Sequence record: PZ715803.1
DNA: 51,987 nucleotides
DNA from: a phage
Reading direction: 5' to 3' (one strand)
The notes under the pieces were generated by a model. That model saw nothing but the letters and a program-made list of their open reading frames with translations. It searched no databases and had not been told where the DNA came from. The translations under genes were made by a program, and so were the position numbers. Positions 33 through 44,457 of this stretch are shown here, piece by piece; position 1 is the first letter of the stretch; each line of letters begins with the position of its first letter.

Positions 33-485
33 TTAGAATGGTATATCATCGTCAAAGTCAATCGGAGGCTGATTGCTTTGCTGCGGCTGCTGTTGAGCGT
101 TTTGTTGCTGTTGCTGTTGTGGTTGCCCCCAGCCTCCTTGCGTTCGCTGCTGATATTGTTGCTGGCTTTCTCCGCGCTGGCTAAATAGCAGGTTTGCAAA
201 TCCGCCAGGCTGCACGGTGCTGTAAATCTTTCCGTTGTATTCTCGCGTTTCAACTCGCAATGTATCGCAGGAAACAGAAATAACCTTTCCTACCTGGAAA
301 GCCTCAGCATACCAACCATTCAGGCCGTCTGTTTTCGCGTTAAAGAAAAACACATAGTTTGTATACTGCCAATTTCCCTCTCGGTCTTTGTAGCGCTCGG
401 AAAGCTCAACAACATATAGCGTGCTGCCGTTAGGCATTTGCTTTACTTTTGGCTCTTTTCGAATCTCACCTGTAATAACGTGCAT
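33..485 (-). CDS. ssb: Single-stranded DNA-binding protein
   Basis: OB-fold-like N-terminus, Gln/Gly-rich linker, acidic C-terminal tail DFDDDIPF; start moved to ATG at 485 preceded by AGGAG. Confidence 0.9.
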   Translation of the reverse strand: MHVITGEIRKEPKVKQMPNGSTLYVVELSERYKDREGNWQYTNYVFFFNAKTDGLNGWYAEAFQVGKVISVSCDTLRVETREYNGKIYSTVQPGGFANLLFSQRGESQQQYQQRTQGGWGQPQQQQQQNAQQQPQQSNQPPIDFDDDIPF

Positions 486-507
486 TTTGTTTTCTCCTAT
501 GACAAAA

Positions 508-523
508 GGGGCGCAAGCGCCCC
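508..523 (-). terminator. Hairpin GGGGCGC-AA-GCGCCCC with T-run on minus strand between erf and ssb
   Basis: Inverted repeat followed by TTTTG on the transcribed (minus) strand. Confidence 0.45.
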
Positions 524-528
524 GTTTA

Positions 529-1185
<657 letters not shown>

Positions 1186-26110: not shown

Positions 26111-26129
26111 TTTTAACAAAAAGTGCTAT
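26111..26129 (-). promoter_or_regulatory. 19-bp element copy, then 22 bp, then TAAAGT; promoter module for 25841..26053 and downstream genes
   Basis: Exact consensus on minus strand abutting the stop codon of 26129..26416. Confidence 0.55.
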
Positions 26130-27445: not shown

Positions 27446-28036
27446 CTATTTAATCTGTGTGTGCTTCCATTTGACAGTATTGACGATCTCGTTTACAGCC
27501 AGCTCCGGCTTGCCGTCCTGCAAGTGGAAATCATAGTGGTGGATTCGATAGTGATAACCGCTCAGGTCAATGTAGTCTCTCGAATCGCCAGCAAACGTGA
27601 AGCCGTCGCGATGCAATCGGCAAATATGCACTTCATGCCCTGCCTTAACCAGCGGCTTGATTTCTTCGGGGAATCCGCCATCACTGATCACAACCGCCAA
27701 ATCTCGGTACATCTCGTGAATCTCTTCAACCATTCGACGCCCGAAATAGTGATCTCCAAAAACTGGCTTCATTACATCCTCGCTAATCCAGATCATGAAT
27801 TGTCGAGGTGACTTGCCGCCTAAGATAACTTGAGGCTTTTCTTTTTGTTCTCGGTCGTTGTACAGGTCCATAAATTCATCGTATCTGTACACGCCCAGCA
27901 TGGAAAACGCAATATCGAACATCGGCTGTTTGAATGACGCCTTAACCGCTGGGTAACGATGGCCCGTTAGGTAAGCTGCAATAGTGTCCTTTCCACAACC
28001 AGGCGGCCCATTAAGGATAATAATGTCTCGCTTCAT
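27446..28036 (-). CDS. P-loop kinase (polynucleotide kinase-like)
   Basis: Walker A GPPGCGKDT at N-terminus; 196 aa. Confidence 0.75.
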   Translation of the reverse strand: MKRDIIILNGPPGCGKDTIAAYLTGHRYPAVKASFKQPMFDIAFSMLGVYRYDEFMDLYNDREQKEKPQVILGGKSPRQFMIWISEDVMKPVFGDHYFGRRMVEEIHEMYRDLAVVISDGGFPEEIKPLVKAGHEVHICRLHRDGFTFAGDSRDYIDLSGYHYRIHHYDFHLQDGKPELAVNEIVNTVKWKHTQIK

Positions 28037-28038
28037 GA

Positions 28039-28230
28039 TTATTCTCCCCTTGCTTTCAACACAGTAATTTCTGTTGTCTCGCTTAAAACCTTGAAATTTC
28101 TATTCTCGCTTTTAATCGTCATATTGACAATCATAACCTGACCGCGCTCTATCATGTCGGCAAGCTCTCTAAGGTGACATGCAGTTTTGGCAATCTCTTC
28201 GCTTTTTTTGTCAAATGGCGGCAATTGCAT
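28039..28230 (-). CDS. Hypothetical protein
   Basis: 63 aa. Confidence 0.55.
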   Translation of the reverse strand: MQLPPFDKKSEEIAKTACHLRELADMIERGQVMIVNMTIKSENRNFKVLSETTEITVLKARGE

Positions 28231-28374
28231 TTAGTTTTCTCCATAGCGTGAGTTGATATTATGCAGCATTTCGCGTCTATGGCGCTTCTTGCGCTGTTTG
28301 TTCACAAACTCCACATGCTCATCGTACCCGCGACGCTTCTTTTTGGTAATGATTTTTTCAAAGTTACGCATCAT
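28231..28374 (-). CDS. Small basic protein (47 aa, below ORF-track cutoff)
   Basis: ATGATG start with AAGGGGG RBS; stop adjacent to next start codon. Confidence 0.4.
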   Translation of the reverse strand: MMRNFEKIITKKKRRGYDEHVEFVNKQRKKRHRREMLHNINSRYGEN

Positions 28375-28430
28375 TTCCCCCCTTAGGTTTTCTCAACATG
28401 GCGCACTGCATGAATGCGCCATAGCAAGAA

Positions 28431-28616
28431 TCACCAATCAAATTTCTGTTTGTCTCTGATGATCTCGTAAATTACTAACCACACCCAAACAAACCAGAAA
28501 GCGAGAACTATTTTATCGTCCTTGTCTGTCGCGCCAGAATATTTCGCAAACGCGCGGAACGTGAATAATCCTGAAATGTAAAGAAAAACAACCAAAAAAG
28601 CAAGTAACCAAATCAT
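28431..28616 (-). CDS. Small membrane protein
   Basis: Two hydrophobic segments; start overlaps upstream stop. Confidence 0.5.
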   Translation of the reverse strand: MIWLLAFLVVFLYISGLFTFRAFAKYSGATDKDDKIVLAFWFVWVWLVIYEIIRDKQKFDW

Positions 28617-28876
28617 TTATTTTCTCCTTCTACTACCAGAGTGTAAAGCAGAACAGGCTCTACCATGTCGCGGCGGCGTGGCTCTCGTGGCGAATCGGGC
28701 CATGCGCATTTCCCGTTTGACACAATATGTCCTACCAGGTCGCTAAGTTTTGAGATTCCATCTCGACGAATAACGTTGTACCCAATATCCTTGCCGTCAA
28801 TAGAATGGATCGCAAAGAAGCTCGGAGCGCCATCAATAATGTCTACCGCTTTAAAAAACTCGATCTTGTTAGCCAT
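28613..28876 (-). CDS. Hypothetical protein
   Basis: 87 aa; element promoter upstream. Confidence 0.6.
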   Translation of the reverse strand: MANKIEFFKAVDIIDGAPSFFAIHSIDGKDIGYNVIRRDGISKLSDLVGHIVSNGKCAWPDSPREPRRRDMVEPVLLYTLVVEGENK

Positions 28877-28932
28877 GATTTAATCCTCGTTTGTTGTTGA
28901 TGGGCTTACTATACCGCAAGCCCGTTGAGATG

Positions 28933-28951
28933 TTTTAACAAAAAGTGCTAT
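28933..28951 (-). promoter_or_regulatory. 19-bp element copy, then 22 bp containing a hairpin, then TATAGT
   Basis: Exact consensus; last base overlaps the phosphatase stop codon. Confidence 0.55.
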
Positions 28952-29742
28952 TACGCATTAACAAAATCGCCGTCGTCGTGTTCAAAGCACCAGCCAAAAC
29001 CTTTTTCATCCCACAAAAAGAATCGGTTTTTATCATGGCTATGAACATCATAAACCTTGCCTTTGATAAAGCTGGCATTGACCAGGCTGTCTTTGCTGCC
29101 GACGAATCGGGCGCGCTTCGTGATCTTGATTGATTCCACGCCGCAACGCAAACATTTACCATCAACCACGCTAAAACAGTGCTCGCCTTCGCATTCGATT
29201 TTTGACTTCAATTCATCCACGCCGTGAGATTGTATGTGAGCGTGTGGCTTGTCGTATTCCGTGACCTGATAGGTTGTGATCCCCAAGCTGCGGAAGTGCT
29301 TAACCACGTTCGGCGAATCGTCAAAGGCGCAAACAATGTTGTCCAGGCCAATAGCGCGCAAGGCTTCTTCTTTAATAACCGTATCCTTTCGGTTGTCCTC
29401 CTGGCGGCGCATGATGATTTCGTCAAACTTCACGCCGTTCTCATTCAACCATTTGCAGGTTTCATAGCGAACCTCGTCGCTGCGTCCGGTCAAGATGACG
29501 ATGGCAAATCCCGACACCCATAAACCGTTAATAACCGCGATAGTGCTTTTAATCGGTGAATCTCCGGCGGCGGCCCTGTTAAACTCGCGCCACGATTCCG
29601 TAAGGTGCAAGTTTTCAGTTGGCAGCAAATGCAAACGATGCGATCCGTCCGATAGTGTTCCGTCCAGGTCAACGATAACAATCGGCTTGCTGGTGATTAA
29701 TTCGTACTTCTTGCCCCACAGTTCGAAAGTGTATTTTTTCAT
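28951..29742 (-). CDS. HAD-family phosphatase (polynucleotide 3'-phosphatase-like) with Cys-rich C-terminal region
   Basis: DxDGT motif (VDLDGTLSDG) near N-terminus; C-terminal CxxC...CxxC. Confidence 0.75.
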   Translation of the reverse strand: MKKYTFELWGKKYELITSKPIVIVDLDGTLSDGSHRLHLLPTENLHLTESWREFNRAAAGDSPIKSTIAVINGLWVSGFAIVILTGRSDEVRYETCKWLNENGVKFDEIIMRRQEDNRKDTVIKEEALRAIGLDNIVCAFDDSPNVVKHFRSLGITTYQVTEYDKPHAHIQSHGVDELKSKIECEGEHCFSVVDGKCLRCGVESIKITKRARFVGSKDSLVNASFIKGKVYDVHSHDKNRFFLWDEKGFGWCFEHDDGDFVNA

Positions 29743-30246: not shown

Positions 30247-30265
30247 TTTTAACAAAAAGTGCTAT
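30247..30265 (-). promoter_or_regulatory. 19-bp element copy, then 21 bp, then TATAAT
   Basis: Exact consensus element and consensus -10 hexamer. Confidence 0.6.
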
Positions 30266-30490: not shown

Positions 30491-31384
30491 TCAAATCTTC
30501 ACCTTCCACTTAACCATCGTTCCGCGCTTGATGCTGATCTCACCCGCAACAGTCCGGTTTTTAGTGCCGCCGTAGTGAAGCAGGAGAATAACAACATCAT
30601 CATGAATCTCGATCGTCTTTGGTGTAGCCGTTAATTCATACCATGTGCCGTCATCAAGCCGGACTCCTTTTAGCGTGGCTGCAACTGGCATATCTTCAAT
30701 CGCGCCCTGCGTTACGATTTCTTGATAGGCAAAGGCGCTCTTATCAATACGCCAGCCTCCAGGCGCTTTCATTTCGGCAGCCGCTTTGTGGATCTCCTCG
30801 CCAATGATTTTTTGAATTGACGTCTTTCCGCCGCCGAATGGAGTTTCTCCAAACAAGTGTTTTGTAATGTCTTCCACGTAGTACACTTTATCCTCTTCGT
30901 TGTGCGGATTGAATTTGTTGTGACCGTTGACAAAGAAATCAACTTTCAACTCTGATTTCGTGCCATCGCTATAAACGCCATTGTCGCGCGATGTGTAGCG
31001 AATCGTTGACTTACCAGTCGTGTGGAACGTGATCGGATACTTGATATTATCCACGCTTAAGCACCACAGCTTTTTGTAGTCGCAGGTTTTCATGTGGACC
31101 ATCGGAATCTCTGCGCGTTCCGGTGAGCGCACTGGTAACACCTGGCCCTTATATGGCTTGTAGTGCAAACATGTGTAGCCTGGCATTGCATAGCCATAGT
31201 CTTTAAGGGCGTGGTAGTGCGTATTGTGTGCATCAATAAAGTGTTCAATCTCCATTGTTGATGGGCTTAGTTTGTCGCTATTCATATCAACCTTATGGCA
31301 TGTTTTTTCATCGGTAAAAATGTAATGACCAATGCCGCGAGATTCGAAGGTGATCGGGAATTTAATGTCAGCAAGTTTTAACAT
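30491..31384 (-). CDS. Hypothetical protein with internal tandem duplication
   Basis: 297 aa; repeated IK(F/Y)PITF..G module at residues about 7 and 115. Confidence 0.75.
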   Translation of the reverse strand: MLKLADIKFPITFESRGIGHYIFTDEKTCHKVDMNSDKLSPSTMEIEHFIDAHNTHYHALKDYGYAMPGYTCLHYKPYKGQVLPVRSPERAEIPMVHMKTCDYKKLWCLSVDNIKYPITFHTTGKSTIRYTSRDNGVYSDGTKSELKVDFFVNGHNKFNPHNEEDKVYYVEDITKHLFGETPFGGGKTSIQKIIGEEIHKAAAEMKAPGGWRIDKSAFAYQEIVTQGAIEDMPVAATLKGVRLDDGTWYELTATPKTIEIHDDVVILLLHYGGTKNRTVAGEISIKRGTMVKWKVKI

Positions 31385-31463: not shown

Positions 31464-31482
31464 TTTTAACAAAAAGTGCTAT
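31464..31482 (-). promoter_or_regulatory. 19-bp element copy, then 22 bp, then CATAAT
   Basis: Exact consensus; directly downstream of the stop of 31483..31668. Confidence 0.55.
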
Positions 31483-31926: not shown

Positions 31927-31945
31927 TTTTAACAAAAAGTGCTAT
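31927..31945 (-). promoter_or_regulatory. 19-bp element copy, then 22 bp containing hairpin GCCAGGC..GCCTGGC, then CATAAT
   Basis: Exact consensus; stop codon of the upstream lipoprotein gene embedded in the element. Confidence 0.55.
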
Positions 31946-33280: not shown

Positions 33281-33299
33281 ATAGCACTTTTTGTTAAAA
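33281..33299 (+). promoter_or_regulatory. 19-bp element copy, then 22 bp, then TACATT; promoter of the rightward early operon
   Basis: Exact consensus; CATCGAAAC leader and GGAGA RBS follow. Confidence 0.55.
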
Positions 33300-34584: not shown

Positions 34585-34603
34585 ATAGCACTTTTTGTTA
34601 AAA
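34585..34603 (+). promoter_or_regulatory. 19-bp element copy, then 22 bp, then TACATT
   Basis: Exact consensus immediately after the stop codon of 34321..34584. Confidence 0.55.
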
Positions 34604-34814: not shown

Positions 34815-35094
34815 GTTTTACAGCTACACCGACACAGTTGATTTTGAGGGGATACAATTGCCCCTCCCAAATATATACCGCTATATCACTCGTGACGAGC
34901 GCGGATTTATTGAAGCCTGGCGCGCTAAGCCAGTGCGGGATCTTGAATTTGGCGGCTTCCGTTCGCTTGAAGGTGAATTGCCGATCTGCTTTGGTCATCA
35001 AAGCGGTGAAAGCCTTCCTGTTGTTGCGCGTAAGTATCGCCGCCACAAGATCACAAGGCAACTTATCTCTTTAACTGGAAAAGTTGTTGAATAG
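34804..35094 (+). CDS. Hypothetical protein
   Basis: ATG 34804 with GGAG RBS. Confidence 0.55.
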   Translation: MSSKFYSYTDTVDFEGIQLPLPNIYRYITRDERGFIEAWRAKPVRDLEFGGFRSLEGELPICFGHQSGESLPVVARKYRRHKITRQLISLTGKVVE

Positions 35095-35109
35095 CACTTT
35101 TTGTTAAAA
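35091..35109 (+). promoter_or_regulatory. 19-bp element copy, then 22 bp, then TGgTATATT (extended -10-like)
   Basis: Exact consensus; stop codon TAG of the upstream gene inside the element. Confidence 0.55.
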
Positions 35110-36582: not shown

Positions 36583-37293
36583 ATGTATAAAGGTTTAATA
36601 TTCTCCCTATTTGATGGATCTGGCAAAGCCGTTAAAGATTGGGCTGATAATGGCTATAAGTGCATTTGCTTTAATGCTGACGGTGGCGATCACGGTGATT
36701 ACCAGTCAGTGCGCATACAGCATGAGAATATCGAATACGTTAACGTCTGGATTGATGAAAGATTTTACCACCGCGCGCGCTGGGAGGAATGGGGCATTCC
36801 TGACTTTATTATGGCATTTCCGCCGTGCACCGACCTTGCAAATAGCGGATCTCGCCATTGGGCCAAAAAACGCCTTGAGAATCCATCGTTCCAGGATGAG
36901 GCCGCCGACACTTGCAGAATCGCGGCTGATATAGCTGATTATTTCGGTGTTCCTTACATGATCGAAAATCCGGTTGGCAAGTTGTCAACGTTATGGCGAA
37001 AGCCTGATTATACGTTCCATCCGTGCGATTACGCTGGCTATCTGCCGGAAGATGATAAACATCCCGACTTCCCTGATATTATTCCGGCACGGGATCGCTA
37101 TTTTAAGAAAACGTGCCTCTGGACTGGCAACGGCTTTGTTATTCCTCCGCGCGCTTTAATCCTGCCGAAAGAGGAAGACAAAGATAATCCAGGCTGGGCC
37201 AAAACTGGCGGTAAGTCATCGCGCACAAAGATGATCCGCTCCCTCACTCCGCGCGGATTTGCTCGCGCCGTCTTTGAGTCAAACTCAAAATAG
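36583..37293 (+). CDS. Putative DNA (cytosine-5)-methyltransferase-like protein
   Basis: FDGSGK (motif I-like), FPPC (catalytic Pro-Cys, motif IV-like), ENPVG (motif VI-like); ATG 36583 with GAGGT RBS. Confidence 0.5.
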   Translation: MYKGLIFSLFDGSGKAVKDWADNGYKCICFNADGGDHGDYQSVRIQHENIEYVNVWIDERFYHRARWEEWGIPDFIMAFPPCTDLANSGSRHWAKKRLENPSFQDEAADTCRIAADIADYFGVPYMIENPVGKLSTLWRKPDYTFHPCDYAGYLPEDDKHPDFPDIIPARDRYFKKTCLWTGNGFVIPPRALILPKEEDKDNPGWAKTGGKSSRTKMIRSLTPRGFARAVFESNSK

Positions 37294-37308
37294 CACTTTT
37301 TGTTAAAA
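37290..37308 (+). promoter_or_regulatory. 19-bp element copy, then 22 bp containing hairpin GCCAGG..CCTGGC, then CATAAT
   Basis: Exact consensus with stop codon TAG of the MTase gene embedded. Confidence 0.55.
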
Positions 37309-41689: not shown

Positions 41690-42805
41690 TCAATTCATCA
41701 TTTCTGGATAGTGAACAAATCGCCCAACTTCTCCATGCTCTTTGTCGTAAATGATAACCGCTGCACGGCGTCGAGATCTCCAGCCACCGCGCGCGGCGTA
41801 TGCGTCTTTTGCCGCCAGGGTGCTATGTACCTCCACGATCCCAAGCGACGTTTCCGTCACGGTCTGGTGATGCCAGTGCCCTACGTGCGCATACATCGTT
41901 TTTGAGTTTCCGAAGTCCTCCCGCCAATCTGACGCGCACATCATTAGCAAAGTCTCAGGTTTGCGCACTGTGTGCCCGTGATGGTACGCAAGGAAAGTTT
42001 TTCCGTATTGCGTGTGGTGAACAACGCGAGGAGAAACATCAACGTAAACGCGCGGCTCGTTCTCATATGCTGCCGCCATTGCTGCGCGTAGCCAAATCAT
42101 TCCTGATTGGTCGTGATTGCCCTCAACGATCTGGACCTCAACATGTTTATGCTTTAACAGCATTTTATTAATTGCGCGGCGCATTGCACGTATTGCAACG
42201 TAAACCAATTTTGCATATCGGCTATCTTGATCAAGTACGTGACCGCTTGCAGGGGTCACAGCCTCCAGGCCATCGCTATGAAGCATGTCGCCACCAATCA
42301 GGATAACAGCCTTTTCACTGTCAGGTGCGCACATCAAAGCATAGTCGATAAAGTTATTCATAACGCGCTCCGCCGTCGCAGTATCCCAATTTTCGCCGCA
42401 CTCGTGCTTATGGGCCATAGCGCCTAAGTGCATGTCAAAGATCGGATACAATGAAAGCGTTTCATTATAGTCACGCTCCTGCAATGGAACTGGATCTAAT
42501 CGCGGCACTTCCTCGCTAAACGCCTCCATTGCTGCGCGCATCAATGCTTCTAGTTGCTCTTTATCCTTGCTGGTTTTGGTCCACTTGAGGATTATGTTTC
42601 CTTCTTTGTCAGTCATTACTGACTCACCATGAACACCAAAACCAGGCGCTCCGATGGTTGATAACTGTCCTTGCTTTGCAAGACGCGCCGCGCGACGCTC
42701 GACGCTTCTCACATTCATTCCGTACTCTTGAGCGATCTGTTTATATGTCTTACCTGCCGCTCGTTCGATCTTGAATTGCTCATCTGTAATTTTTACATTT
42801 TTCAT
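41690..42805 (-). CDS. Calcineurin-like metallophosphoesterase with N-terminal helix-turn-helix domain
   Basis: DxH, GDxxHxD, GNHD motifs; N-terminal HTH-like segment TYKQIAQEYGMNVRSVERRAARL; ATG 42805. Confidence 0.75.
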   Translation of the reverse strand: MKNVKITDEQFKIERAAGKTYKQIAQEYGMNVRSVERRAARLAKQGQLSTIGAPGFGVHGESVMTDKEGNIILKWTKTSKDKEQLEALMRAAMEAFSEEVPRLDPVPLQERDYNETLSLYPIFDMHLGAMAHKHECGENWDTATAERVMNNFIDYALMCAPDSEKAVILIGGDMLHSDGLEAVTPASGHVLDQDSRYAKLVYVAIRAMRRAINKMLLKHKHVEVQIVEGNHDQSGMIWLRAAMAAAYENEPRVYVDVSPRVVHHTQYGKTFLAYHHGHTVRKPETLLMMCASDWREDFGNSKTMYAHVGHWHHQTVTETSLGIVEVHSTLAAKDAYAARGGWRSRRRAAVIIYDKEHGEVGRFVHYPEMMN

Positions 42806-42899
42806 TCTGCTACCTATCTCATTACTATATGGTACATAACTGTAACAGCGATGATAACGGGTAACGGTAGAACAAACAAGCGCCACATGATAACTATCC

Positions 42900-43368: not shown

Positions 43369-43387
43369 TTTTAACAAAAAGTGCTAT
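43369..43387 (-). promoter_or_regulatory. 19-bp element copy, then hairpin, then CATAAT; right arm of the 45-bp inverted repeat; candidate promoter of the lysis-containing operon
   Basis: Exact consensus; stop codon of 43387..43644 abuts the element. Confidence 0.55.
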
Positions 43388-44438: not shown

Positions 44439-44457
44439 TTTTAACAAAAAGTGCTAT
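44439..44457 (-). promoter_or_regulatory. 19-bp element copy, then 22 bp, then CATAAT; promoter module upstream of dam
   Basis: Exact consensus immediately after the VRR-NUC stop. Confidence 0.55.

What the first reader, a model, noticed from the sequence alone, without database searches (positions are those of the whole stretch)
27446..29742. Split polynucleotide kinase and 3'-phosphatase-like genes without a recognisable ligase
A P-loop kinase (27446..28036) and a HAD phosphatase with a DxDGT motif and a Cys-rich C-terminal extension (28951..29742) are separated by four small ORFs. In T4 these two activities sit in one protein (Pnk) and work with an RNA ligase to repair tRNA cut by host anticodon nucleases. 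No protein here has a KxDG ligase motif by eye. Either a host ligase is used, one of the unknown proteins is a non-canonical ligase, or the enzymes serve nucleotide metabolism instead.
Basis: partly seen in the sequence, partly recalled or inferred. Interest (0 to 1): 0.5.

Follow-up and report, generated by a model that had tools for sequence, protein, structure and literature searches.

The report
T1-like phage nucleotide kinase plus 3'-phosphatase
The two genes are real, but they are an ordinary and already annotated pair in T1-like phages: a T4 gp1-type deoxynucleotide kinase and a stand-alone T4 Pnkp-type 3'-phosphatase, which more likely help recycle host DNA into phage DNA precursors than repair cut tRNA.

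Summary
The window is a near-complete T1-like coliphage (Drexlerviridae, Warwickvirus; 96-97% nucleotide identity to tonnikala and FritzSarasin). Both genes exist on the minus strand with four small ORFs between them.

- **C-terminal extension:** it is a mosaic of two small optional modules that close relatives lack.
- **RNA-repair context:** I found no ligase and no tRNA gene.
- **Linkage elsewhere:** in 50 of 80 related viral loci the phosphatase is followed by this kinase, always in that order and often overlapping. A metallophosphoesterase "exonuclease" frequently sits just upstream. Each gene also occurs without the others, sometimes next to nucleotide-metabolism genes.

Best reading: a nucleotide-salvage and end-cleaning helper set, not a split Pnkp. 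No biochemistry exists for it. Interest is low.

The parts
27446..28036 (-). gp1-type (d)NMP kinase, 196 aa
27983..28009 (-). Walker A / P-loop G-P-P-G-C-G-K-D-T (aa 10-18)
   Evidence: Read from the translation. G15, K16, D17 and T18 are invariant in 27 homologues. The GKDT form is shared with T4 gp1 (SGKDT), whereas T4 Pnkp has SGKST.
28039..28230 (-). small ORF, 63 aa (phrog_16293, function unknown)
   Evidence: Found in only 9 of the related loci, so it is a variable insert.
28231..28374 (-). small basic ORF, 47 aa (Pfam Phage_1_1, T7 gene 1.1-like)
   Evidence: Pfam E 6.8e-5, 23.7 bits against a cut-off of 21. Present in 5 loci.
28431..28616 (-). small hydrophobic ORF, 61 aa (phrog_9755)
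   Evidence: Present in 12 loci.
28613..28876 (-). small ORF, 87 aa (phrog_25318)
   Evidence: Present in 12 loci.
28908..28950 (-). phage promoter copy: the 17-mer TAGCACTTTTTGTTAAA (28934..28950), a 20-nt spacer holding an inverted repeat, then TATAGT (28908..28913)
   Evidence: The 17-mer has 19 copies against 0.34 expected, all intergenic and co-oriented with transcription, each followed by a -10-like hexamer. This copy abuts the phosphatase stop codon. The small ORFs and the kinase therefore have a promoter of their own.
29206..29742 (-). Pnkp-type HAD 3'-phosphatase core (aa 1-179)
29656..29670 (-). DxDxT motif D25-L-D27-G-T29 (nucleophile and acid-base aspartates)
   Evidence: Invariant in alignment A2. 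Corresponds to T4 Pnkp D165, D167 and T169; their roles are described in PMC3592404.
29125..29205 (-). C-terminal module A (aa 180-206): Cys/His knuckle C184-x3-H188-C189 ... C197-x2-C200
   Evidence: Present alone in relatives of 204-211 aa and absent from most others. The AF2 confidence is low (pLDDT 26-38), so zinc binding is inferred only.
28954..29124 (-). C-terminal module B (aa 207-263): small beta-rich domain of unknown function
   Evidence: Present alone in relatives of 236-237 aa. AF2 pLDDT 60-84 with five strands. No Pfam match even at E 10. No homologues outside this phage group among 1.84 billion representatives.
41690..42886 (-). metallophosphoesterase 'DNA repair exonuclease' (phrog_704). 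It is 12 kb away here, but lies directly upstream of the phosphatase in other lineages.
   Evidence: PHROG 704, E 7.8e-149; weak Pfam Metallophos match. A metallophosphoesterase is adjacent to the phosphatase in 34 of 85 loci.

Best explanation
These are two separate auxiliary enzymes of DNA-precursor and DNA-end metabolism in a T1-like phage. They are not the halves of a tRNA-repair Pnkp.

The 196-aa protein is a gp1-type nucleoside-monophosphate kinase. It uses ATP (P-loop GKDT) to convert dNMPs to dNDPs, which host NDP kinase then converts to dNTPs.

The 263-aa protein is a stand-alone Pnkp-type DxDxT phosphatase. Asp25 attacks a 3'-phosphomonoester to form an aspartyl-phosphate, which Asp27-activated water then hydrolyses. 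This produces 3'-OH ends or 5'-mononucleotides from 3'-phosphorylated DNA or RNA breakdown products.

T1-like phages degrade the host chromosome and reuse its nucleotides. The recurring gene order metallophosphoesterase/exonuclease, then 3'-phosphatase, then dNMP kinase suggests the order of a salvage route: break down, remove the 3'-phosphate, rephosphorylate the 5'-dNMP. In this window that ancestral phosphatase-kinase bicistron has been moved to the early region and split by four small variable ORFs and a promoter.

Shown here: family membership, catalytic residues, folds, synteny, and the absence of a ligase.
Inferred: the substrates, the pathway order, and the link to host-DNA recycling.
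For: Kinase:
- It is in the same PHROG (139) as T4 gp1 over the same profile span.
- hhalign to gp1 covers 74 columns; hhalign to T4 Pnkp covers only the 24 P-loop columns.
- Many of its BFVD structural neighbours, and most of those that carry a name, are annotated dNMP kinases. One is fused to a nucleoside 2-deoxyribosyltransferase.
- In Vequintavirus the homologue sits beside ThyX and NrdAB.

Phosphatase:
- It matches HAD_PNKP. D25, D27, R36, T85, R87, D120, K124, D141 and D142 correspond to T4 D165, D167, R176, S211, R213, D254, K258, D277 and D278, and all are invariant.
- T4 Pnkp phosphatase also hydrolyses the mononucleotide 3'-dTMP (PMC3592404).
- In RB49-like T4-type phages (59 records at 95% identity or more) a stand-alone homologue lies beside nrdB, with the two ORFs overlapping by 4 nt in Delraymugoa. 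Delraymugoa also carries a full Pnkp next to Rnl1, so the stand-alone form is not simply the repair enzyme.

Linkage:
- The order phosphatase then kinase holds in 54 of 54 loci that have both. In 26 of the 50 IMG/VR cases the genes overlap or abut.
- A metallophosphoesterase lies directly upstream in 34 of 85 loci and comes from at least two families unrelated by BLASTP.
- Each gene also occurs without the others: ISAO8 has the metallophosphoesterase and kinase; many 44-kb contigs have the metallophosphoesterase and phosphatase. That fits autonomous helper enzymes better than an obligate two-step healing system.

No ligase and no tRNA genes were found.

Literature:
- T1 and TLS degrade host DNA and reuse the nucleotides (PMC11447400).
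- A 2026 survey proposed the same 'nucleotide supply' role for this pair in Drexlerviridae (PMC13164509).
Against: - No enzyme of either clade has been assayed.
- The kinase-gp1 relationship is remote: 16% identity, and a direct HMM alignment gives only 8.7 bits over 36 residues. Substrate specificity cannot be read from it.
- The phosphatase's nearest characterised relatives all act on polynucleotide ends in RNA repair.
- A salvage route has no obvious need for a 3'-phosphatase, because the main E. coli and phage DNases leave 5'-phosphate and 3'-OH ends (established knowledge).
- Tight phosphatase-kinase coupling is also what a distributed PNKP would look like. Mammalian PNKP has the same phosphatase-then-kinase domain order (established knowledge).
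- The nrdB adjacency in Krischvirus is a single evolutionary event.
Confidence: 0.55

Rival explanations
1. Distributed end-healing system. The Pnkp-type phosphatase removes 3'-phosphate or 2',3'-cyclic phosphate. The gp1-like kinase has been recruited as a 5'-OH polynucleotide kinase. In some lineages the upstream metallophosphoesterase acts as a cyclic phosphodiesterase, as in Clostridium thermocellum Pnkp. A host ligase (LigA for DNA nicks) would seal the healed ends, protecting phage DNA, or host tRNA, from defence nucleases that leave 3'-P and 5'-OH ends.
For: - The phosphatase is a bona fide Pnkp-type domain.
- The order phosphatase then kinase is strictly conserved, and the genes frequently overlap, which suggests translational coupling.
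- A metallophosphoesterase is adjacent in two unrelated phage families.
- CthPnkp combines a P-loop kinase with a metallophosphoesterase (PMC2190708 abstract).
- The Cys/His knuckle in the C-terminal extension could bind nucleic acid.
Against: - The kinase belongs to the gp1 / NMP-kinase group and resembles Pnk only at the P-loop.
- The alignment with T4 Pnkp stops at the P-loop, so no counterpart of Pnk's catalytic Asp35 can be placed; I noticed no invariant acidic residue right after strand 2, but I did not test this.
- There is no ligase in the genome and no tRNA genes.
- The phosphatase and the kinase each occur alone in related phages. Healing for ligation needs both.
- E. coli RtcB ligates 3'-P/5'-OH RNA ends directly, so removing the 3'-phosphate would work against host RNA repair (established knowledge).
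- The C-terminal extension is missing in near-identical phages such as FritzSarasin.
Confidence: 0.2
2. The two enzymes have functionally unrelated jobs and are linked only by shared history as a mobile cassette. The kinase boosts dNTP supply. The phosphatase does something else, for example dephosphorylating a protein or small-molecule target, or a nucleotide-based host immune signal or alarmone.
For: - The phosphatase is found without the kinase in about 30 of 80 loci.
- The variable C-terminal modules suggest changing targets.
Against: - The Pnkp-specific residues beyond the generic HAD motifs (R36, R87, D120, equivalent to T4 R176, R213, D254) are invariant.
- Sequence identity is highest to Pnkp phosphatases (31-33%) and only 18-20% to the acid phosphatases.
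- The neighbours are consistently nucleic-acid and nucleotide enzymes.
Confidence: 0.15
3. One of the unknown early proteins is a non-canonical ligase that completes a repair pathway.
For: Only that several early ORFs have no assigned function. The 297-aa ORF 30491..31384 has no Pfam or PDB match.
Against: - The 297-aa ORF occurs in only 14 of about 52 loci that carry the pair. The four ORFs between the genes occur in 5-12 loci. No conserved third partner exists.
- The other unknown ORFs are too small for any known ligase fold.
- Ligase queries (Rnl1, ATP-dependent DNA ligase, Rnl1-like) give only noise against the window.
- The K.DG motifs fall in structural proteins.
Confidence: 0.04

Closest known systems
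T4 polynucleotide kinase-phosphatase (Pnkp/PseT), C-terminal DxDxT phosphatase domain (PDB 1LTQ, 5UJ0); also Capnocytophaga Pnkp1 (4XRP)
   Same: Same HAD_PNKP family and fold. All catalytic and essential residues are conserved, with 31-33% identity over the core.
   Different: - There is no fused 5'-kinase domain and no partner RNA ligase.
- It has an extra N-terminal beta-hairpin (aa 1-17).
- It has a variable Cys/His knuckle plus a small beta-domain at the C-terminus.
- It falls in a separate PHROG (415) from full-length Pnkp (505).
T4 gp1 deoxynucleoside monophosphate kinase (PDB 1DEK)
   Different: Only about 16% identity. It lacks gp1's roughly 45-residue insertion. Substrate range is unknown. 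T1-like DNA has no hydroxymethylcytosine, so the hmdCMP-specific rationale for gp1 does not apply.
Clostridium thermocellum Pnkp (P-loop kinase + metallophosphoesterase + ligase-like domain) and lambda phosphatase
   Same: In Webervirus and Melnykvirinae a metallophosphoesterase gene directly precedes the phosphatase and kinase genes. Metallophosphoesterases of this type can open 2',3'-cyclic phosphates (PMC2190708).
   Different: - They are separate genes, not one polypeptide.
- An additional HAD phosphatase is present.
- There is no adenylyltransferase or ligase domain.
- The Drexlerviridae metallophosphoesterase is annotated as an SbcD/Mre11-like exonuclease. It has no PDB sequence match and only a weak Pfam Metallophos match.
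Mammalian PNKP
   Same: The phosphatase precedes the kinase, and both act on DNA ends (established knowledge; abstracts).
Class B/C acid phosphatases and plant VSP (HAD nucleotidases)
   Different: Lower sequence identity (18-20%). The Pnkp-specific Arg and Asp residues point to the Pnkp clade instead.

Membership tests
Pnkp-type HAD (DxDxT) 3'-phosphatase (Pfam PF25109 HAD_PNKP) | Profile score above the curated threshold | tested here: met
   74.7 bits against a cut-off of 27.6, E 1.1e-20, covering profile positions 3-140 of 143.
Pnkp-type HAD (DxDxT) 3'-phosphatase (Pfam PF25109 HAD_PNKP) | Motif I DxDxT with the nucleophile Asp and the acid-base Asp | tested here: met
   D25-L-D27-G-T29, invariant in 18 homologues. 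The roles of T4 D165 and D167 are from PMC3592404.
Pnkp-type HAD (DxDxT) 3'-phosphatase (Pfam PF25109 HAD_PNKP) | Motif II Ser/Thr, motif III Lys and motif IV DD (T4 S211, K258, D277/D278), plus the Pnkp-specific R176, R213 and D254 | tested here: met
   T85, K124, D141/D142, R36, R87 and D120 align to these positions (alignments) and are invariant in A2. That R176, R213 and D254 are essential is taken from my knowledge of T4 Pnkp mutagenesis.
Pnkp-type HAD (DxDxT) 3'-phosphatase (Pfam PF25109 HAD_PNKP) | Fold closest to solved Pnkp phosphatase domains | tested here: met
Pnkp-type HAD (DxDxT) 3'-phosphatase (Pfam PF25109 HAD_PNKP) | 3'-phosphomonoesterase activity on nucleic-acid ends or 3'-nucleotides | not testable with these tools
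   Needs an enzyme assay.
Bifunctional Pnkp / RNA-repair system (T4 Pnkp + Rnl) | A Pnk-type 5'-kinase domain, fused or as a partner | tested here: not met
   - The phosphatase has no kinase domain.
- The neighbouring kinase matches T4 Pnkp only over 24 P-loop columns.
- The kinase does not hit PHROG 505.
Bifunctional Pnkp / RNA-repair system (T4 Pnkp + Rnl) | An RNA or DNA ligase encoded with it | tested here: not met
   - No ligase is annotated in the 96%-identical FritzSarasin genome.
- Pfam and PHROG scans of the unannotated ORFs of 110 aa or more found none.
- Ligase queries against the window give only noise.
T4 gp1-type dNMP kinase (PHROG 139) | Membership of the same profile family as T4 gp1 | tested here: met
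   The window kinase scores E 3.4e-51 on profile positions 81-261. T4 gp1 scores E 1.8e-65 on positions 83-261.
T4 gp1-type dNMP kinase (PHROG 139) | P-loop of the GKDT type and the NMP-kinase fold nearest to 1DEK | tested here: met
T4 gp1-type dNMP kinase (PHROG 139) | Direct full-length sequence similarity to gp1 | tested here: inconclusive
   hhalign gives 87% probability over 74 columns only. The HMM of A1 against gp1 gives 8.7 bits over 36 residues.
T4 gp1-type dNMP kinase (PHROG 139) | Phosphorylation of dNMPs to dNDPs | not testable with these tools
   Needs an enzyme assay.

The most novel reading that the evidence does not exclude
The conserved cassette of phosphatase then kinase, often preceded by a metallophosphoesterase, is a previously unrecognised ligase-less end-healing system. 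In it a gp1-fold kinase has evolved to phosphorylate 5'-OH polynucleotide ends, and a host ligase completes the repair of phage DNA or host RNA cut by defence nucleases. This would be a third, independently assembled architecture of PNKP.
Probability: 0.1. Interest if true: 0.55.

Novelty: already known. Interest (0 to 1): 0.2.

Why it matters
It matters mostly as a correction.

- The common database label 'polynucleotide kinase' or '3'-phosphatase, 5'-polynucleotide kinase' for this T1-like gene is misleading, because the protein is phosphatase-only.
- The neighbouring 'ATP-binding protein' is a gp1-type nucleotide kinase.
- The pair should not be read as evidence that T1-like phages repair tRNA.

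The open question is modest but real: what does a stand-alone Pnkp-type 3'-phosphatase do? It is coupled to a dNMP kinase and an exonuclease in hundreds of phages. No member has been assayed, and a 3'-phosphatase step in host-DNA recycling would be new biochemistry if shown.

Tried and rejected
2. Homologues of the C-terminal extension. An exhaustive HMMER search of 1.84 billion representatives gave only the module-A relatives plus two repetitive proteins that are spurious. Pfam at E 10 gave nothing.
3. Hidden ligase. I used a K.DG scan, Pfam and PHROG on unannotated ORFs, PDB searches of the 297-aa and DUF7174 ORFs, and phmmer and tblastn with Rnl1, an ATP-dependent DNA ligase and an Rnl1-like protein. 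All were negative. I had no structure-prediction jobs left for the 297-aa ORF.
4. A single metallophosphoesterase family upstream of the phosphatase. This was rejected: the Drexlerviridae and Melnykvirinae metallophosphoesterases show no BLASTP similarity.
5. Literature. I found no experimental work on this pair, only annotation-level remarks. A retron Eco2 paper that matched the search terms was irrelevant.
6. A terminator after the phosphatase. The hairpin at about 28905..28926 has no U-tract and lies inside a promoter copy.
Full report
**What the window is.** A 3.4-kb stretch around the finding is 96-97% identical to Escherichia phages tonnikala, vB_EcoS-95 and FritzSarasin. These are Drexlerviridae, Tempevirinae, Warwickvirus, that is, T1-like siphoviruses of about 51 kb. 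The window is therefore essentially a whole T1-like genome. FritzSarasin is annotated with terminase, structural genes, a RecE-like exonuclease, an Erf-like protein, SSB, primase, helicases, Dam and Dcm methylases and lysis genes. It has no DNA polymerase and no ligase. ARAGORN finds no tRNA gene in the window.

**Checking the observation.** Both ORFs exist on the minus strand.
- The kinase (27446..28036, 196 aa) has the P-loop GPPGCGKDT and a strong ribosome-binding site.
- The phosphatase (28951..29742, 263 aa from the ATG that homologues use) has VDLDGTL and a Cys/His-containing tail.
- Four small minus-strand ORFs (63, 47, 61 and 87 aa) lie between them. Each matches a PHROG or Pfam family.
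- The claim of 'no KxDG' is not literally right. There are 10 K.DG matches against 5.4 +/- 2.4 expected, but all are in the portal, prohead protease, decoration or cement proteins, the tail tip protein, a Cor-like membrane protein and SSB.

**The kinase is a gp1-type nucleotide kinase, not a Pnk.**
- Pfam gives only sub-threshold P-loop hits.
- PHROGs places it in phrog_139 'deoxynucleoside monophosphate kinase' (E 3.4e-51, profile positions 81-261).
- T4 gp1, whose sequence I checked as identical to PDB 1DEK, hits the same PHROG over positions 83-261 (E 1.8e-65). T4 Pnkp goes to phrog_505 and others, not 139.
- An AlphaFold model built on 27 homologues is confident (pLDDT 91).
- Against predicted viral structures, many of the neighbours, and most of those that carry a name, are annotated dNMP kinases.
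- Profile-sequence comparison aligns 74 columns with gp1 (87% probability). These include GKDT, the Y-x-AVK strand and the L-x-GKSP motif. Only the 24 P-loop columns align with T4 Pnkp.
- The direct sequence signal to gp1 is weak: 16% identity, and 8.7 bits in an HMM alignment. Family placement is therefore solid, but substrate specificity is not established.

**The phosphatase is a genuine Pnkp-type domain that stands alone.**
- Pfam HAD_PNKP scores 74.7 bits against a cut-off of 27.6.
- phmmer finds Pnkp1 (4xrp) and T4 Pnkp (1ltq, 5uj0). hhalign to T4 Pnkp gives 96.5%.
- Using the numbering in the alignment, T4 D165, D167, R176, S211, R213, D254, K258, D277 and D278 correspond to D25, D27, R36, T85, R87, D120, K124, D141 and D142. 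All are invariant in 18 homologues.
- The roles of D165, D167, S211, K258 and D278 are described in PMC3592404. That paper also notes activity on the mononucleotide 3'-dTMP.
- There is no kinase domain.

**The C-terminal extension is a mosaic.**
- Most homologues end near residue 179, as FritzSarasin's does.
- Some add a 27-residue Cys/His knuckle (module A). Others add a 57-residue module B. Only this window and one 90% cluster have both.
- The junctions repeat the peptide GV(E/D)(E/S)(L/I)K.
- Module A is modelled with low confidence. Module B is a small beta-domain.
- Neither module has relatives outside this phage group. The extension is therefore accessory, not a defining part of the enzyme.

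**Context elsewhere.** I fetched 80 viral loci encoding phosphatase relatives and searched them with HMMs of both proteins.
- Fifty have the kinase, always downstream on the same strand.
- In 26 of these the genes overlap or abut, typically by 4 nt. In 21 they are 0.6-3.3 kb apart, as they are here.
- The inserted ORFs are variable: each of the window's four is found in only 5-12 loci.
- A metallophosphoesterase lies directly upstream of the phosphatase in 34 of 85 loci. It comes in two forms that are unrelated by BLASTP. One is the Drexlerviridae 'DNA repair exonuclease', as in Webervirus KpV522, where the exonuclease gene is followed 37 nt later by the phosphatase gene, which overlaps the kinase gene by 4 nt, and the kinase gene is followed by a terminator. 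The other is a calcineurin-like phosphoesterase in T7-like Melnykvirinae.
- In this window the exonuclease homologue is 12 kb away, at 41690..42886.
- The genes also occur separately. ISAO8 has the metallophosphoesterase and kinase but no phosphatase. Many 41-45-kb contigs have the metallophosphoesterase and phosphatase with no kinase within 8 kb.
- Kuravirus has the kinase next to an exonuclease. Vequintavirus has the kinase next to ThyX and NrdAB.
- RB49-like T4-type phages carry a stand-alone phosphatase beside nrdB; in Delraymugoa the two ORFs overlap by 4 nt, and that genome also carries a full Pnkp beside Rnl1.

**No ligase.**
- The unannotated ORFs of 110 aa or more give no ligase, nucleotidyltransferase, RtcB or 2H family in Pfam or PHROGs.
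- The only sizeable unknowns are a 297-aa ORF at 30491..31384 and DUF7174. Neither has a meaningful PDB match. The 297-aa ORF accompanies the pair in only 14 loci.
- Rnl1, ATP-dependent DNA ligase and Rnl1-like queries give only noise against the window.

**Interpretation.** The kinase groups with dNMP kinases. The phosphatase groups with Pnkp rather than with nucleotidases, although nucleotidase-type acid phosphatases are the next structural neighbours.
- A tRNA-repair role is unlikely. There is no Pnk-type kinase and no ligase, and the two activities are not obligately co-inherited.
- Removing a 3'-phosphate would also work against E. coli RtcB, which ligates 3'-P/5'-OH RNA ends directly (established knowledge).
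- T1 and TLS degrade the host chromosome and reuse the nucleotides (PMC11447400). A 2026 survey of Drexlerviridae already suggested that the 'PNK' and 'dNMP kinase' genes extend the replication module to enhance nucleotide supply (PMC13164509).
- The recurring order exonuclease, 3'-phosphatase, dNMP kinase fits a salvage route in which 3'-phosphorylated ends or nucleotides are cleaned and 5'-dNMPs are rephosphorylated. That pathway order is my inference.
- I put about 0.55 on this reading, 0.2 on a distributed end-healing system that uses a host ligase, and 0.15 on unrelated functions.

**Novelty and score.**
- Identical or near-identical proteins are already in GenBank. The kinase is 100% identical in phage JLBYU19 and the phosphatase core is 98% identical in NorthRox.
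- They are annotated as dNMP kinase or ATP-binding protein, and as polynucleotide kinase or 3'-phosphatase. Their linkage has been remarked on in print.
- The finding is therefore already known at the level of gene families. What remains unknown is the biochemistry.
- Interest is 0.2.

Noticed in passing
window, 19 sites, e.g. 26112-26128(-), 28934-28950(-), 30248-30264(-), 31465-31481(-), 31928-31944(-), 33282-33298(+), 34586-34602(+), 35092-35108(+), 37291-37307(+), 43370-43386(-), 44440-44456(-): A 17-mer, TAGCACTTTTTGTTAAA, occurs 19 times (13 exact) against 0.34 expected. It is always intergenic and oriented with local transcription, and a -10-like hexamer (TATAAT, CATAAT, TATAGT or TACATT) follows about 20 nt later. 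This looks like a family of phage promoters. In many copies the spacer holds a short GC-rich inverted repeat that runs up to or encloses the -10, which could be an operator or a structured element.
   Followed up: partly
homologues of the kinase (P0062, P0088, P0097, P0103, P0108, P0111, P0112 and others); window SSB 33..536(-): Thirteen of the 120 listed kinase homologues end in an acidic tail of the form D-D-I-P-W. This resembles the SSB C-terminal tip, and the window phage's own SSB ends DFDDDIPF. The tail may tether the kinase to SSB-tip-binding replisome proteins. The window's kinase lacks it.
   Followed up: partly
window 30491..31384(-): A 297-aa protein of unknown function (phrog_7116) with no Pfam or PDB match. 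Its N-terminal ~55 residues are internally duplicated (IKFPITFESRG... / IKYPITFHTTG..., BLASTP E 1e-4). It is present in only 14 of the related loci.
   Followed up: partly
window 28954..29217(-) (phosphatase aa 176-263): The joints between the phosphatase core, module A and module B repeat a short peptide (HGVDELK / CGVESIK, then ITKRAR). This suggests the modules were swapped by recombination at short repeats. Closely related phages carry no module, module A only, module B only, or both.
   Followed up: partly
window 28231..28374(-): A 47-aa basic ORF between the two genes matches Pfam Phage_1_1 (T7 gene 1.1 protein) above the gathering threshold, 23.7 bits against 21.
   Followed up: no
L003 3998-4474 (Escherichia phage Delraymugoa); RB49-like phages in general: RB49-like T4-type phages (59 records at 95% identity or more) carry a 158-aa stand-alone Pnkp-type phosphatase beside nrdB, usually mislabelled 'polynucleotide kinase'. 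In Delraymugoa its start overlaps the nrdB stop by 4 nt, and that genome also has a full-length Pnkp next to Rnl1.
   Followed up: partly
window 41690..42886(-): The 'DNA repair exonuclease' (phrog_704) has an N-terminal helix-turn-helix (sigma-70 region 4-like) segment ahead of a weakly scoring metallophosphoesterase domain. It has no sequence match in the PDB.
   Followed up: no
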